Below are positions 1-26,207 of a DNA stretch of 29,134 nucleotides, one piece after another. A model generated the notes under the pieces. The model had not been told where the DNA came from, did no database searches, and worked only from the letters and a program-made list of their open reading frames with translations. Within the stretch, counting starts at the first letter, position 1. Each line of letters begins with the position of its first letter. The stretch covers positions 1 to 29,134 of the forward strand of contig CAZRMR010000003.1 in the NCBI GenBank assembly GCA_964601245.1. The letters run 5' to 3'. Both the position numbers and the translations under genes were made by a program. This DNA is from an uncultured Candidatus Saccharibacteria bacterium (GTDB lineage: Bacteria > Patescibacteriota > Minisyncoccia > Phycocordibacterales > WO2-35-19).

Positions 1-175
1 GAGAAGCTCTGCCGTCTCGCGAGCGTCATCGAGCCACCCATTCTCCACTTGTTTACCGAGAATCTTTTGGAGTTCCTCGATAGTGAGTTCTCGTTTGAGA
101 AGCTCTGCCGTCTTGCGAGCGTCAGTGAACCACCCATTCTCCACTTGTTTACCAAGAATCTTTTGGAGTTCCTCG
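1..175. repeat. 96-bp-period tandem repeat (two copies visible)
   Basis: 1-79 vs 97-175 match at 74/79 nt; period of 96 nt equals 32 codons. Confidence 0.95.
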
Positions 176-261
176 GTCCGGTTTGGTTCGGGGAGAAAGT
201 CAAATGCTTTTTGTGCATATTTTCCTCCCAATTTTGTAAAAAGTTCATAAAGTTGGTTCAT
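1..261 (-). CDS. 32-aa tandem-repeat protein (runs off the left edge; not in the supplied ORF track)
   Basis: ATG at 261, GGAGG at 270-266, open to position 1: MNQLYELFTKLGGKYAQKAFDFLPEPNRT-EELQKILGKQVENGWFTDARKTAELLKRELTI-EELQKILGKQVENGWLDDARETAELL... Confidence 0.85.
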   Translation of the reverse strand, partial: MNQLYELFTKLGGKYAQKAFDFLPEPNRTEELQKILGKQVENGWFTDARKTAELLKRELTIEELQKILGKQVENGWLDDARETAELL

Positions 262-276
262 AAAACCTCCTTTATC

Positions 277-305
277 TTTATAATATTTATTACATAAAAA
301 GTCAA
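277..305 (-). promoter_or_regulatory. sigma70-type promoter for the repeat-protein gene
   Basis: TTGACT (305-300), 17-nt spacer, TATAAA (282-277). Confidence 0.6.
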
Positions 306-22216: not shown

Positions 22217-23080
22217 TTAATTTAATAAGCCAAAAAGATAAATTCTATTTTCTACCACTTTTTGCATTGATTCTTTTGGTTCTTTCAAATATTTGTACGG
22301 AGCTATTTCATCAGGGTTTTCTGAAAGAGATTTTTGTAGACCTTGTCTATAAGCAACTCTCAATTCTGTGTTTATGTGAATTATTGAAATACCAGCCTTT
22401 ATGGCTTCTTTGAATTCTTCATCTGTTATGCCTGATCCCCCATGCAAAACAAGTGGTACTCCTGCAAATTCCCTTATTGTCTTTATTCTTTCTATGTCTA
22501 ATTTTGGATTACCACCCCTTACCATTCCATGAATATTACCAACAGCTGGGGCAAAAAGATCAATACCTGTTTCTCTCACAAAATCTCTTGCTTCTTCCGG
22601 CTTGGTCATATTGTTTTCTTTTATTTCCGCTTCTTCTGGTAGTTGATCTAGTATTTTTGAAGATTTGCCTATAAAACCAAGTTCGGCTTCGATTAAAATA
22701 TTTGGATTTTTTTCTCTTGCATAAGATACTGATTCTTTAGTCATTCTCACATTTTCTTCAAATGATTTTTCGACTCCGTCTATAATGGCGGAGTCAAAAT
22801 TTGCGTCTATCACTTGCTTCATTCTTTCAGGAGAATATGTGTGATCAGCATTTAAAAATATAGGCAAACCTTCTTCTTTAAATGTATCAACTAAAGCTTT
22901 TATTTGCTTGATTCCCACAAAATCCCTTTCTCCTTCTGAGACTCCTATAATAACTGGTGTATTCAATTTTTTTGAAGCATTGACGACTGCCCACAGACCT
23001 TCAATATTTGATATATTAAAATGACCTATTGCCACTTTTTTTGATTCAGCCTCGCTTATATAATCTTTTAAAGTTTTCAT
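22217..23080 (-). CDS. fba: Class II fructose-bisphosphate aldolase (start likely MKTLKDY at 23080)
   Basis: AIGHFN, LNADH, EAELG, PAVGNIHG, PLVLHGGSG, INTELR. Confidence 0.93.
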   Translation of the reverse strand: MKTLKDYISEAESKKVAIGHFNISNIEGLWAVVNASKKLNTPVIIGVSEGERDFVGIKQIKALVDTFKEEGLPIFLNADHTYSPERMKQVIDANFDSAIIDGVEKSFEENVRMTKESVSYAREKNPNILIEAELGFIGKSSKILDQLPEEAEIKENNMTKPEEARDFVRETGIDLFAPAVGNIHGMVRGGNPKLDIERIKTIREFAGVPLVLHGGSGITDEEFKEAIKAGISIIHINTELRVAYRQGLQKSLSENPDEIAPYKYLKEPKESMQKVVENRIYLFGLLN

Positions 23081-23172
23081 ATTAGAATTATACATCAAAA
23101 TATATTTAATAGTGAAAGTTATCTACAATCTTTTTTGTTTCAATTTTTTATAAATGTATAATTATTATTAGT

Positions 23173-24186
23173 ATGAATTTTCTAAATGAAGAAAAAAATT
23201 TTGATTTTGTGGCTATTGGCGATATTACGACTGACGCTTTTATAAGGCTTAAAGATGCAAAAGTCTTATGTGATTCTGAAGGTAAAAAATGCGAATTGTC
23301 TTTACGTTTTGGCGATAAGGTTCCTTATGAATTTATGGAGGAAGTAAGAGCGGTGGGCAATAGTGCAAACGCTTCAGTTTCAGCTCGGAGACTTGGTCTA
23401 AATTCTGCCTTGGTCACAAACGTTGGAGACGATCACAATGGTCTCGAATGTATAGCCACACTTAAAAAAAATGGAGTGGCTACAGATTTTGTATCTATAC
23501 ATAAAGACAAAGAAACAAATTATCATTATGTTTTGTGGTTCGAGGACGATAGGACTATTCTCGTTAAGCACCATGAATATGAATATAAACTTCCAGATAT
23601 TGGCAGACCAAAATGGGTATATTTGTCATCTATGGGAGAGAATTCACTTCCTTACCATCACGAAATTGCAGATTATTTAAGAAAAAATCCAGAAATAAGA
23701 TTAGCTTTTCAACCAGGTACTTTCCAAATTAAACTTGGTTATGAGAATTTAAAAGATATCTATTCTCAAACAGATGTCTTTTTTTGCAATAAAGAAGAAG
23801 CTAAAAGTATACTAAATAAACCAGAAGAGAATGATATAAAAAATTTGTTGATCGGAATTAGAGATTTGGGGCCAAATGTTTCAGTTATAACTGATGGCCC
23901 TAAAGGAGCTTATGCTTATGATGGATATGAAGGTTATTTTATGCCCACATTTAAAGATAAAAAACCACCTTATGACAGGACTGGTGCCGGTGATGCTTTT
24001 GCTTCAACTTTTATTTCGGCAATAGCTCTTGGTAGATCACTTTTTGACGCTTTTTTGTGGTCGCCAATAAATTCTATGTCGGTCGTTCAAGAGATTGGTG
24101 CTCAAAAAGGTCTTTTAAGACAAGAAGATTTGTTGAAAATTCTATCTGAAGCCCCAAGCGATTATCATCCAGAGAAAATAATTTAG
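23173..24186 (+). CDS. PfkB/ribokinase-family carbohydrate kinase
   Basis: GNSANASVSARRLG, VGDD, FCNKEE, VITDGPKGA, DRTGAGDAF. Confidence 0.93.
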   Translation: MNFLNEEKNFDFVAIGDITTDAFIRLKDAKVLCDSEGKKCELSLRFGDKVPYEFMEEVRAVGNSANASVSARRLGLNSALVTNVGDDHNGLECIATLKKNGVATDFVSIHKDKETNYHYVLWFEDDRTILVKHHEYEYKLPDIGRPKWVYLSSMGENSLPYHHEIADYLRKNPEIRLAFQPGTFQIKLGYENLKDIYSQTDVFFCNKEEAKSILNKPEENDIKNLLIGIRDLGPNVSVITDGPKGAYAYDGYEGYFMPTFKDKKPPYDRTGAGDAFASTFISAIALGRSLFDAFLWSPINSMSVVQEIGAQKGLLRQEDLLKILSEAPSDYHPEKII

Positions 24187-24215
24187 CCACAAGTGTTACA
24201 AGTGTTACTTGTGGC
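24186..24215. terminator. Hairpin at the convergence of pfkB and tkt
   Basis: 9-bp stem GCCACAAGT/ACTTGTGGC; weak U-tract on either strand. Confidence 0.55.
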
Positions 24216-24311
24216 CTTTGGATTGGGGGGGCTGGGGGAGAGAAAAGCACCGGTGTTTGGTAAGTGTCTGGATCACCTCCTTTCTCTCTCCCCCACTTTG
24301 TTCGTTAGACT
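24186..24311 (-). ncRNA. Putative small RNA carrying an 18-nt complement of the 16S rRNA 3' end
   Basis: AGAAAGGAGGTGATCCAG at 24285-24268 within a 15-bp stem-loop; promoter upstream, hairpin downstream. Confidence 0.55.
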
Positions 24312-24317
24312 GAGTAA

Positions 24318-24346
24318 AATTTATCAAATATTTTTTCTGTTGCCAA
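24318..24346 (-). promoter_or_regulatory. sigma70-type promoter for the putative sRNA
   Basis: TTGGCA (24346-24341), 17 nt, TGA-TAAATT (-10 at 24323-24318). Confidence 0.55.
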
Positions 24347-24359
24347 ACAAAACTGTTGA

Positions 24360-25355
24360 TTACTTTTTTCTTCTCATGACATCTTCCAGAGCTTTTTGTA
24401 TGTTTTCTGTTTCAAGACCATAGTGTTTAAAAAGTTCTTCTGGGCTTCCGGATTGGCCAAATTTGTCTTTTATTCCTACAAATTCAATGGGAACAGGATA
24501 TTTTCTAGATAATAATTCTGATACAGCACTTCCTAAACCTCCTGCTATTTGATGATCTTCAAGTGTTACTACTGCACCACATTCTTCTGCAAGTTCTAAA
24601 ATCTTTTCTTCATCAAGTGGTTTTATTGTATGAATATTTAAAACTTTGACTGGGATCCCCTCGCCCATAATTTTTTTAGCTACAAGTATTCCGTTGTATG
24701 TTATTGGTCCAGTTGAAATTATCACAACTTTTGCTTTTGTCATCGGATCAAAAAGTAAATTTGATTTACCAATTTCAAAAGGGGTTTCTTCTGTTGTTAT
24801 AATTGGAGTGGCGTTTCTCGCTAATCTTATATATACAGGCTTATTTATTTTTATTGATTCGATTGTGGCCTTCTTTGCTTCAAAATAATCAACTGGAGAT
24901 AGGACGACAATATTTGGTATTACTCTCATTAAAGCAATATCTTCAAGAGCTTGATGGGTACCTCCGTCTGGTCCGACAGAAACTCCTGCATGACTGCCAA
25001 CTATTTTTACTGGTAAATCGTTATAACAAATCGTCGTCCTTATTTGTTCCCAATTTCTTCCAGGATTAAACATTGCATAAGAGCTGATAAAAGGTATTTT
25101 GCCCATTCTTGCCATTCCGCTTGCCGTTGTAGCCAAATTTTGTTCTGCCACTCCTAATTGAATAAATCTTTCTGGATATTTTTTAGCAAATAAATTCATT
25201 TGGGTTGATTCGTTTAAATCAGCGCACAAACCAACTACTTCTTTATTTTGATCTCCGGCAATTAAAAGACCCTCTCCAAAACCTTGACGTGTTGATTTTT
25301 TTTCCACATCTTGATCAAAAAGTTTTGCATTTAATTTTAAATTCTGATTCAACAT
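24360..25355 (-). CDS. tkt: Transketolase, C-terminal subunit
   Basis: GVAEQN, SHAGVSVGPDGGTHQALED, PVYIRL, EDHQIAGGLG. Confidence 0.95.
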   Translation of the reverse strand: MLNQNLKLNAKLFDQDVEKKSTRQGFGEGLLIAGDQNKEVVGLCADLNESTQMNLFAKKYPERFIQLGVAEQNLATTASGMARMGKIPFISSYAMFNPGRNWEQIRTTICYNDLPVKIVGSHAGVSVGPDGGTHQALEDIALMRVIPNIVVLSPVDYFEAKKATIESIKINKPVYIRLARNATPIITTEETPFEIGKSNLLFDPMTKAKVVIISTGPITYNGILVAKKIMGEGIPVKVLNIHTIKPLDEEKILELAEECGAVVTLEDHQIAGGLGSAVSELLSRKYPVPIEFVGIKDKFGQSGSPEELFKHYGLETENIQKALEDVMRRKK

Positions 25356-25358
25356 TTT

Positions 25359-26207
25359 CTAAATTTGATTATTTCTTAATTCTGCAATCGCTTTTTCCGC
25401 TTCTTCTTTTGTTGGGGGTTTGCCATGCCATTTATAATTTTCCTCCATAAAAGAAACTCCTTTGCCTGGAATTGTATTGGCAATAATTACAGATGGTCTA
25501 TCAAAAACATTTTTAGCTTTATTTATCGCTTCTGCAATTTGATTGAAATCATGTCCATCTATAACTTGCACGTGCCAATTAAAAGATTCAAATTTTTGAT
25601 TCAATGGTTCAAGAGGCATTATAATTTCTGTATTACCCTCTATTTGGATATTGTTTCTATCTATTATGATGGTCATATTTTGCAATCTTTCTTTTGCACC
25701 AAGCATGACACCTTCCCAACTGTTTCCTTCATCTAATTCACCATCAGAAACTATACAATAAAATTGTTTTGGGGAATTTAGGCCATTATCCATTCTATCA
25801 GCGAGACACATTCCGACTGTTTGAGAAATACCACTTCCAAGCGGTCCAGAACTGGTTTCCAAAAAGGGCATAAATTCTCTGTGCGGGTGTCCCTGTAAAC
25901 GCGAACCAAATTTTCTCAAAGTTTTTAATTCTTCTAAATCAAAATATCCAGAGTGAGCCATTGTTGCATATAAAACTGGGCAAATATGCCCGTTTGACAA
26001 GATTAAACGGTCTCTTTCTTGCCAATTTGGATTGGTTGGATCGTGTCTTAATATATGAAAATAAAGTGTGGTAAAAATATCAGCCATACCCAAGGCTCCG
26101 GCCGAGTGTCCACTTTTTGCTTCGGCAAGCATTTCTATTATAGATATTCTTATATCGTTTGCTTTCTGTTTAAGCCATTTTATTTTTTCTTCTGACAAAG
26201 TTTCCAT
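25359..26207 (-). CDS. tkt: Transketolase, N-terminal (TPP-binding) subunit
   Basis: SGHSAG, DRLILSNGH, LQGHP, SGPLGSG, SDGELDEG...N, HGK. Confidence 0.95.
   Translation of the reverse strand: METLSEEKIKWLKQKANDIRISIIEMLAEAKSGHSAGALGMADIFTTLYFHILRHDPTNPNWQERDRLILSNGHICPVLYATMAHSGYFDLEELKTLRKFGSRLQGHPHREFMPFLETSSGPLGSGISQTVGMCLADRMDNGLNSPKQFYCIVSDGELDEGNSWEGVMLGAKERLQNMTIIIDRNNIQIEGNTEIIMPLEPLNQKFESFNWHVQVIDGHDFNQIAEAINKAKNVFDRPSVIIANTIPGKGVSFMEENYKWHGKPPTKEEAEKAIAELRNNQI

What the first reader, a model, noticed from the sequence alone, without database searches (positions are those of the whole stretch)
24186..24346. Putative sRNA presenting a perfect 18-nt complement of the 16S rRNA 3' end with no start codon after it
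Seen: plus strand 24268-24285 reads CTGGATCACCTCCTTTCT, the canonical bacterial 16S 3' terminus (established knowledge). Chance expectation in this window is of order 1e-6 under uniform base composition. On the minus strand this is AGAAAGGAGGUGAUCCAG, an extended Shine-Dalgarno. It lies in a 15-bp stem with one bulge (24233-24247/24280-24295) that leaves GAGGUGAUCCAG in the loop. A promoter (TTGGCA-17-TGnTAAATT) predicts a start near 24311 and a 9-bp hairpin lies at 24186-24215, giving ~125 nt. No AUG, GUG or UUG occurs at normal spacing downstream. Inference: an anti-SD-binding RNA that could trap, store or reprogramme 30S subunits in a genome where most mRNAs here lack SD sequences. Alternatively, a plus-strand anti-SD mimic that binds strong SDs.
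Basis: partly seen in the sequence, partly recalled or inferred. Interest (0 to 1): 0.85.

Follow-up and report, generated by a model that had tools for sequence, protein, structure and literature searches.

The report
Orphan small RNA carrying perfect Shine-Dalgarno
A conserved small RNA gene in tiny symbiotic (Parcubacteria) bacteria displays the exact complement of the universal 16S rRNA tail, yet these bacteria's own ribosomes have lost that tail, so the RNA cannot act on them and its partner is unknown.

Summary
CTGGATCACCTCCTTTCT (24268-24285, +) is unique in the 594-kb genome. It lies in a 173-bp gap between convergent pfkB and transketolase genes, with a minus-strand promoter-like site, a 14-bp stem and a hairpin.

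This organism's own 16S ends ...GUCGUGGAAUAUUUCAAGG, with no CCUCC. All 15 relatives whose 16S 3' end could be read also lack the tail, and genes here carry no Shine-Dalgarno (SD) signal.

The element is nevertheless conserved. Variants sit at the same spot in about 25 of 38 family genomes. Units with the same layout occur at other loci in about a dozen further families of the order. The only conserved block, AAAGGRGGUGAUCC, matches the universal single-stranded 16S tail. There is no conserved ORF and no Rfam match. Orientation features favour the SD-like strand.

I conclude it is a new stand-alone small RNA (sRNA) family. Its function is unproven. My best guess (about 0.3) is a decoy for canonical anti-SD tails, which can only belong to other cells such as hosts. 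Rivals are a protein sponge, an SD-helix mimic on its own 30S, and an rRNA-derived relic.

The parts
24341..24346 (-). -35-like hexamer TTGGCA of the sRNA promoter
   Evidence: Equivalent TTGCAA/TTGCGG/TTTACA hexamers lie just after the transketolase stop in relatives.
24318..24323 (-). -10-like hexamer TAAATT with upstream TG; the predicted start is near 24311
   Evidence: G015 shares ATTTGATAWATTTTACTCAG with G000.
24282..24295 (-). 5' strand of the main stem (GGGGGAGAGAGAAA), running into the conserved motif
   Evidence: Minus-strand fold. Relatives have stems of different sequence but the same position.
24268..24285 (-). Conserved motif AGAAAGGAGGUGAUCCAG, the exact complement of the canonical bacterial 16S 3' tail
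   Evidence: Conserved core AAAGGRGGUGAUCC in 31 homologues.
24233..24246 (-). 3' strand of the main stem (CUUUUCUCUCCCCC)
24187..24216 (-). Terminal hairpin (GCCACAAGU...ACUUGUGGC) followed by a U/A-rich tail that overlaps the pfkB stop codon; probable terminator shared by both convergent units
   Evidence: In relatives the T-run lies on this strand.
23173..24186 (+). pfkB-family sugar kinase gene (flank; convergent)
24360..25355 (-). Transketolase C-terminal half gene (flank; upstream on the sRNA strand)

Best explanation
Shown:
- The locus has the layout of a stand-alone small-RNA gene on the minus strand, about 24311 to about 24180 (roughly 130 nt). Promoter-like and terminator-like signals favour this strand, but transcription itself has not been observed.
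- It belongs to an undescribed sRNA family in an order of Parcubacteria/Paceibacteria whose 16S rRNA has lost the anti-Shine-Dalgarno (anti-SD) tail.
- The only element conserved across the family is a 14-18-nt purine tract (AAAGGRGGUGAUCC). It is identical to a perfect extended SD and spans the universally conserved single-stranded 16S 3' tail, with neither flank conserved.
- In many members this tract is predicted to pair with a weak, G.U-rich, tail-like pyrimidine tract inside the same RNA.
- It does not serve as the SD of a conserved ORF.
- It cannot pair usefully with the cell's own 16S.

Inferred mechanism:
- The tract is a base-pairing decoy for canonical CCUCC tails.
- A perfect canonical tail would displace the weak internal partner and be sequestered.
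- No such tail is encoded in these genomes, so the target would be ribosomes of other cells (the host or prey of these presumed episymbionts). The producer's anti-SD-less, SD-independent ribosomes would be immune.
For: sRNA gene:
- Promoter-like site and hairpin in the window.
- Conserved in synteny in about 25 of 38 family genomes, with completely diverged loops.
- Same layout at unrelated loci in about a dozen other families, for example after RmuC, Dus (before dnaX) and MreB.
- Promoter-like score 7.66 of 12 on the SD-like strand against 4.62 on the reverse complement. Ten of 29 score at least 9 of 12, against 2 of 29.
- Terminator-like hairpin plus T-run downstream in 14 of 29, against 4 of 29 on the other strand.
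- The minus strand folds better in 17 of 24 spacers, by 6.4 kcal/mol on average.

Not self-directed:
- The own 16S tail is GGAAUAUUUCAAGG; the same type is seen in 15 of 15 relatives whose 3' end could be read.
- There is no other copy of the canonical tail in the genome.
- GGAG or GAGG lies upstream of only 4.2% of starts, against 7.7% inside genes.
- Seed against own tail gives -9.4 kcal/mol, 18th percentile.

Pairing-type constraint:
- The conserved block matches the universal tail, with neither flank conserved.
- Core substitutions are mostly A to G (GGAGG to GGGGG, AAAGG to AAGGG or AGGGG, GAUCC to GGUCC). These keep pairing with a C/U partner by wobble. Only one G to A lineage was seen, in a 34% G+C genome.
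- Internal partners look like degenerate tails, such as GGAUCACUUC, UUGGAUCACCUUC and AUUACCUCC.
- Many members carry 2-3 motif copies.

Other points:
- Sister orders keep the canonical tail.
- CsrA, Era and bS21 were not found.
Against: - There is no evidence of transcription, export or contact with another cell; no host is known.
- The motif is not preferentially unpaired (0.35-0.37 against 0.41 for the whole RNA), unlike classical sRNA seeds.
- G499, from another order with a canonical 16S, carries an sRNA-like unit with a 25-nt exact copy (29 of 30 with one gap) of its own 16S 3' end. So such a unit can coexist with canonical ribosomes and there may act on self.
- The element was not seen at the pfkB-transketolase spot in about a third of family genomes, so it is dispensable.
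- An unknown RNA-binding protein could explain the conservation.
- Promoter and terminator scans are consensus matches in AT-rich DNA.
Confidence: 0.3

Rival explanations
1. Protein sponge or decoy, following CsrB/RsmZ logic. An RNA-binding protein of these bacteria recognises AAGGAGGU-type sequences. The sRNA, with 1-3 motif copies, titrates it away from the few mRNAs that still carry such a sequence in front of their start codon.
For: - One to three motif copies per RNA.
- A small set of promoter-proximal ORFs carries AAGGAGGT at SD spacing although ribosomes lack the anti-SD. One shares 13 nt (GAAAGGAGGTGAT) with the motif.
- AGGAGG is followed by an ATG-started ORF in 16 of 210 cases, against about 3.5% for permuted hexamers.
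Against: - CsrA was not found; the best hit scores 18.7 bits against a cut-off of 27. No candidate protein was identified.
- Protein sites rarely need 14 invariant nucleotides that coincide with the complement of the 16S tail.
- GGA is lost in the GGGGG variants.
- The motif is mostly helical rather than in loops.
- The SD-bearing ORFs could be recent transfers.
Confidence: 0.22
2. Ribosome-associated RNA acting on its own 30S. The internal helix of purine motif and pyrimidine partner mimics an SD/anti-SD duplex and docks in the platform cleft (h26/h28 region) that the lost tail no longer fills. It would act as a structural, hibernation or initiation-control factor.
For: - The motif is usually paired with a tail-like internal tract.
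- A published note reports that h26, which contacts the SD helix, stays highly conserved in anti-SD-less Parcubacteria for unknown reasons (PMC9297842).
- The family is concentrated in the anti-SD-less order.
Against: - The partner strand, its position (upstream or downstream) and the helix geometry vary widely.
- A helix mimic would not need an invariant purine strand.
- The element is missing from many genomes of the family.
- No direct evidence exists.
Confidence: 0.13
3. rRNA-derived relic. A duplicated 16S 3'-end fragment (tail plus processing stem) now serves only as a stable hairpin, terminator or insulator between convergent genes, without sequence-specific function. A variant is that the plus strand acts as an anti-SD mimic in the pfkB 3' UTR.
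For: - G499 shows that a fresh copy of a 16S 3' end (25-nt exact run; 29 of 30 with one gap) can arise in such a unit.
- The G000 flank GGTAAGTGTCT faintly resembles the h45 sequence GGAAGCTGTGGAT.
- The element sits between convergent genes.
- In G000 itself the plus strand folds slightly better (-50.4 against -44.6 kcal/mol).
Against: - The whole order lost the tail, yet the motif stays nearly invariant while loops and flanks diverged completely and genomic positions differ. That pattern indicates selection on the sequence.
- A terminator needs no such motif.
- Orientation signals favour the SD-like strand.
- Genes have no SDs for a plus-strand mimic to bind.
Confidence: 0.1
4. A very short mRNA: the motif is a true ribosome-binding site for a tiny or non-AUG-initiated ORF.
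For: - Perfect SD sequence.
- In G001 and G007 an upstream second motif is followed by ATG at 6-7 nt, giving 11- and 12-codon ORFs.
Against: - No start codon lies at SD spacing after the main motif in G000 or most homologues.
- The G001 and G007 peptides (MVWDVKEVIQP, MKWVKEGGDPAR) cross the motif in different frames. The shared CCCAUnnnAUGGG is a hairpin.
- The ribosomes lack an anti-SD.
Confidence: 0.03

Closest known systems
Shine-Dalgarno / anti-Shine-Dalgarno pairing (mRNA leader with the 16S 3' tail)
   Same: The motif AGAAAGGAGGUGAUCCAG is a perfect 18-nt extended SD for a canonical bacterial 16S tail.
   Different: No ORF follows it. The producing cell's 16S has no CCUCC tail, and its genes carry no SD signal.
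CsrB/RsmX/Y/Z protein-sponge sRNAs
   Same: Stand-alone sRNA with its own promoter and terminator, and one to several SD-like purine motifs.
   Different: CsrA is not detected. The motif is 14 nt rather than A(N)GGA, GGA is lost in some variants, and the motif is mostly helical.
Loss of the anti-SD motif in a Parcubacteria subgroup (Tsurumaki et al. 2022, PMC9297842)
   Same: The same lineage-level trait is confirmed here on 16 16S genes (G000 and 15 relatives).
   Different: That paper describes the rRNA only. No sRNA carrying the complement of the lost tail is reported in the passages I read, and keyword searches of the paper library found none.
rRNA-mimic leaders and rRNA-derived fragments (for example r-protein autoregulatory leaders, rRNA operon remnants)
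   Same: A short stretch identical, on the opposite strand, to a functional rRNA segment. G499 shows an origin from the genome's own 16S 3' end.
   Different: It is transcribed antisense to the rRNA-like strand, is not next to any r-protein gene, and has been kept long after the rRNA itself changed.

Membership tests
Translation initiation region (functional SD of an ORF) | Start codon 4-10 nt downstream of the SD, opening a conserved ORF | tested here: not met
   No ATG, GTG or TTG lies at that spacing in G000. No conserved ORF or frame is seen in homologues.
Translation initiation region (functional SD of an ORF) | Complementary anti-SD in the organism's 16S rRNA | tested here: not met
   The own 16S ends GGAAUAUUUCAAGG. 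15 of 15 relatives whose 3' end could be read show the same type. The duplex is -9.4 kcal/mol, 18th percentile.
16S rRNA gene, pseudogene fragment or misassembly | Flanks align to helix 45 or the rest of the 16S; match to the SSU model | tested here: not met
   No RF00177 match in the window. Only a faint resemblance upstream of the 18-mer. The same junctions are conserved in independent assemblies. The criterion is met in G499 for 30 nt only.
CsrB/Rsm-type sponge sRNA | Cognate CsrA/RsmE protein encoded in the genome | tested here: not met
   PF02599 best hit is 18.7 bits against a cut-off of 27, inside a 373-aa ORF.
CsrB/Rsm-type sponge sRNA | Multiple GGA motifs exposed in hairpin loops | tested here: inconclusive
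   There are 1-3 motifs per RNA, but the motif is mostly paired and GGA is lost in the GGGGG variants.
Trans-encoded bacterial small RNA (generic) | Own promoter and intrinsic terminator, no ORF, conserved across species | tested here: met
   orientation statistics; conservation. Transcription itself was not observed.
SRP (4.5S) RNA | Match to the SRP RNA model and presence of Ffh | tested here: not met
   Considered because two homologues lie just upstream of dnaX. RF00169 is not found in 61 genomes. No SRP54-type GTPase or M domain was found. SRP loss in Parcubacteria is published (PMC4508563).
Any Rfam 15 family | Covariance-model match at or near the gathering score | tested here: not met
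   Only sub-threshold microRNA hairpin noise was found (21 bits or less, against cut-offs of 47-105). Nothing was found in homologous loci.

The most novel reading that the evidence does not exclude
The sRNA is an inter-cellular weapon or manipulation factor. It would be an exported 'anti-anti-SD' RNA that sequesters the universally conserved 16S tail of host ribosomes and shuts down SD-dependent initiation. Loss of the anti-SD from the symbiont's own 16S would then be the matching immunity. That would link two otherwise unexplained traits of this Parcubacterial order.
Probability: 0.2. Interest if true: 0.95.

Novelty: new variant of a known kind. Interest (0 to 1): 0.72.

Why it matters
Loss of the anti-SD is one of the oddest features of Parcubacterial ribosomes. 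This work finds a conserved RNA in the same lineage that preserves the complement of the lost tail.

If the RNA targets canonical ribosomes, it would be the first natural RNA inhibitor aimed at the anti-SD. It would also give a molecular handle on how these uncultured episymbionts exploit their hosts.

If the RNA instead binds a protein or its own 30S, it reveals a new layer of translation control in SD-less bacteria.

Either way it defines a new sRNA family. The family can be sought in metatranscriptomes and tested in vitro with ordinary ribosomes.

Tried and rejected
- **Own 16S as target.** Rejected. The tail differs and the duplex is weak. No better site was seen: the only top hit inside the 23S coordinates lies on the opposite (antisense) strand.
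- **Era KH-domain ligand (GAUCACCUCC).** Rejected. No Era was found in the genome, and most CPR lack it (PMC10582724).
- **bS21 or CsrA partners.** Not found.
- **Divergent SRP RNA.** Considered because two homologues lie upstream of dnaX. Rejected: no Ffh or FtsY, the loss is already published, and no helix-8 motifs are present.
- **tRNA-derived element.** tRNA-Arg(CCG) of G520 contains the same 13-mer by chance. ARAGORN finds no tRNA at any sRNA locus, and none of the 40 own tRNAs carries the motif.
- **Repeat or mobile element.** Single copy.
- **Split or trans-spliced 16S tail, or RNA-templated tail addition.** Nothing supports either. The genes need no anti-SD, and the RNA-like strand is the wrong one.
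- **Covariance model of the family.** Not built. Outside the roughly 16-nt motif nothing aligns, so a model would add little to the pattern searches.
- **Look-alikes removed from the counts.** Many exact 13-mer hits in the order are coding. Six of these are the cyclophilin motif FMIQGGDP, and others lie inside long ORFs.
- **Literature searches** for a comparable sRNA found nothing.

Full report
**1. Observation**

The window reads CTGGATCACCTCCTTTCT at 24268-24285 on the + strand. Shuffles of the window give 0.01 matches even with three mismatches allowed. A 15-mer core with up to one mismatch is found nowhere else in the 594,293-bp, 34% G+C, 37-contig genome.

The 173-bp region 24187-24359 separates two convergent genes:
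- a pfkB-family kinase at 23173-24186 (+);
- the C-terminal half of a split transketolase at 24360-25355 (-).

On the minus strand:
- a 14-bp stem forms between 24295-24282 and 24246-24233, leaving GGAG and UCCAG unpaired in the loop while GUGA forms a weak 4-bp inner helix with CACC;
- a hairpin closes the unit at 24187-24214 (8 bp in the fold; 9 bp possible to 24216);
- a promoter-like site TTGGCA-17-TG-TAAATT lies at 24346-24318.

No start codon follows the motif at SD spacing. Rfam has no match beyond sub-threshold hairpin noise.

**2. The tail is not this organism's own**

The genome's only 16S gene lies on contig C8 and is cut at its 5' end by the contig edge. It has a normal helix 45 (CACGGCUAGC-GGAA-GCUGGUCGUG), but then continues GAAUAUUUCAAGGUGAA instead of GAUCACCUCCUU.

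Fifteen relatives had a readable 16S 3' end:
- Those of the same family carry the identical tail.
- Those of other families of the order carry related AU-rich tails, such as GGAUUAUUUCAA and GGAAUUCUUCC.
- Most of these tails appear able to form a 4-bp mini-hairpin that co-varies (UUCA/UGAA, UUCC/GGAA, UCCA/UGGA). I read this from the sequences; I did not run a covariation test.

By contrast, other orders of the same class end in ...GGAUCACCUCCUUUCU.

Record titles place the lineage in Patescibacteria/Parcubacteria, for example 'Ca. Zambryskiibacteriota'. Loss of the anti-SD in a Parcubacteria subgroup is already published (PMC9297842).

Consistent with that loss, GGAG or GAGG occurs at -20 to -3 of only 4.2% of 452 long ORFs, against 7.7% inside genes. 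G is depleted upstream of starts.

The seed pairs with the own 16S tail at only -9.4 kcal/mol, the 18th percentile of all genome windows. The RNA cannot work by binding the anti-SD of its own ribosomes.

**3. The element is nevertheless conserved**

A DNA search of relatives found a syntenic copy in G022, a different genus. Exact GGATCACCTCCTT occurs in 9 of 61 related genomes. In six family members it sits in the same pfkB-transketolase spacer, and it is never at a 16S end.

I fetched the spacer from 38 family genomes. About 25 carry a variant of the form (CU)GGAUCACC[UCC|CCC|UUC|UCCC]UUUCU. Loops and flanks are unalignable. In roughly a third of the genomes the two genes abut and the element is missing at this spot.

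Across 401 genomes of the order (118 families), GGATCACCYCCTT gives 63 hits against 5 for the reversed control pattern. I inspected 29 of these loci:
- Six encode the cyclophilin motif FMIQGGDP.
- About ten lie inside other long ORFs.
- Thirteen are non-coding units with the same layout as the window element. They sit at unrelated positions, including after RmuC, after MreB, and between Dus and dnaX. They represent about a dozen further families.

One counted genome (G285) is unpublished. Its hit is coding, and no claim here rests on it.

**4. Strand and anatomy**

Across 29 homologues:
- The best sigma-70-like match upstream of the motif scores 7.66 of 12 on the SD-like strand, against 4.62 on the reverse complement.
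- Ten of 29 score at least 9 of 12, against two of 29 on the reverse complement.
- A hairpin with a T-run follows the motif in 14 of 29, against 4 of 29 on the other strand.

In the family, the T-run of the hairpin next to the pfkB stop lies on the minus strand (for example G022). G001 has a separate transketolase terminator before the promoter. The minus strand of the spacer folds better in 17 of 24 cases, by 6.4 kcal/mol on average. G000 itself is an exception.

Some members carry two or three motif copies. No ORF or reading frame is conserved.

The anchored alignment of 31 members conserves only (R)AAAGG(A/G)GGUGAUCC(R). That block is the complement of the universally conserved single-stranded 16S tail. 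It extends neither into helix 45 nor past the mature 3' end.

Core substitutions are almost all A to G. These would still pair with a C/U partner by wobble. Only one G to A lineage was seen, despite the AT-rich genome.

The motif is not preferentially single-stranded (0.35-0.37 unpaired against 0.41 overall). In many members it is predicted to pair with an internal, degenerate, tail-like tract such as GGAUCACUUC, UUGGAUCACCUUC or AUUACCUCC. That tract lies sometimes upstream and sometimes downstream of the motif.

**5. What it is**

- Supported by these signals: a stand-alone, non-coding sRNA gene family, absent from Rfam and not found in the literature searches. Transcription itself has not been observed.
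- Inferred: selection acts on a sequence that is meaningful only as the partner of a canonical 16S tail.

No such tail is encoded in these genomes. Several of them are nearly closed, for example G001 with 9 contigs, and contain the sequence only in this element.

The most economical mechanism is a decoy for canonical anti-SD tails of other cells. The weak G.U-rich internal helix would act as a mask that a perfect target displaces. The producer's anti-SD-less, SD-independent ribosomes would be immune. This fits the presumed episymbiotic lifestyle of the group. It is unproven, and I give it about 0.3.

**6. Rivals**

- **Protein sponge (0.22).** A few promoter-proximal small ORFs carry AAGGAGGT at SD spacing, and one shares 13 nt with the motif. 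AGGAGG is followed by an ATG-started ORF about twice as often as permuted hexamers are. Against this, CsrA, Era and bS21 were not found, and a protein site would not be expected to coincide with the tail's complement.
- **SD-helix mimic docking on its own 30S platform (0.13).** This fits the helical state of the motif and the unexplained conservation of h26. It does not explain the invariant purine strand.
- **rRNA-derived relic or plus-strand mimic (0.10).** G499, from another order with a canonical 16S, has an sRNA-like unit with a promoter-like site and a terminator on the SD-like strand. It carries a 25-nt exact copy (29 of 30 with one gap) of its own 16S 3' end. This shows how such genes can arise, and that they can coexist with canonical ribosomes. 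The long retention of the motif after the tail was lost argues for function.
- **Tiny ORF (0.03).**

**7. Verdict**

The element is a new, conserved sRNA family with an unexpected sequence in an unexpected lineage. Strand-specific RNA-seq and simple binding or translation assays with ordinary 30S subunits would settle the main alternatives.

Noticed in passing
G000 contig C8 (L001:1488-1530, minus) and 16S 3' ends of relatives (L033-L052): In this order the 16S tail GGAUCACCUCCUUUCU is replaced by GGAWUAUU plus what looks like a 4-bp mini-hairpin that co-varies (UUCA/UGAA, UUCC/GGAA, UCCA/UGGA). A variable hairpin and a conserved (G)AGUCGAU box follow; the box is also present downstream of canonical 16S genes in sister orders. 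The pairing was read by eye and not tested.
   Followed up: partly
L161:1410-1594 (G499, another order of the class): A unit with a promoter-like site and a terminator carries a 25-nt exact copy (29 of 30 with one gap) of that genome's own canonical 16S 3' end (part of helix 45 plus the tail) on the antisense strand. It may be a young member or an origin of this sRNA family, in a cell with normal ribosomes.
   Followed up: partly
window 262-279 (-) with ORF window 1-261 (-); also G000 C8:1249, C7:4993, C14:1175, C31:1782, C21:3456: A handful of small, promoter-proximal ORFs carry a strong AAGGAGGT at SD spacing although the ribosome has no anti-SD. The C14 gene (radical-SAM-like CxxxCxxC) has GAAAGGAGGTGAT. 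AGGAGG is followed by an ATG-started ORF in 7.6% of cases, against about 3.5% for permuted hexamers.
   Followed up: partly
whole genome G000 and 40-60 relatives: No SRP RNA (RF00169), no SRP54-type GTPase (Ffh/FtsY) and no Ffh M domain were detected. SRP loss (ffh and ffs) in Parcubacteria is already published (PMC4508563).
   Followed up: yes
L024:1270-1440 (minus; G045): Directly downstream of that genome's sRNA lies a second, strongly structured non-coding region closed by GACAGAGGG/CCCUCUGUC, with its own terminator. The 324-nt stretch containing it has a z-score of -7. It has no Rfam match and contains GAUCCUCCUCC.
   Followed up: no
L001 about 1840-2035 (own 16S): The own 16S carries a roughly 130-nt insertion near E. 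coli position 1140, and its 5' part is cut by the contig end. The 16S is not followed by a 23S; a terminator and a protein gene follow instead. The 23S lies on another contig (C4:22736-26885) and is 4.1 kb long, so it carries insertions.
   Followed up: no
L183:192-263 (G520); L119, L121, L129, L132, L133, L142: The 13-mer AAGGAGGTGATCC also arises by chance in tRNA-Arg(CCG) (anticodon stem, variable loop and T stem) and in the cyclophilin coding motif FMIQGGDP. These are false positives to filter out in any motif search for this family.
   Followed up: yes
window 24360-26207 (-): Transketolase is encoded as two separate ORFs, an N-terminal half (25359-26207) and a C-terminal half (24360-25355). 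Class II fructose-bisphosphate aldolase (22217-23098) and pfkB lie nearby, forming a compact sugar-phosphate cluster.
   Followed up: no
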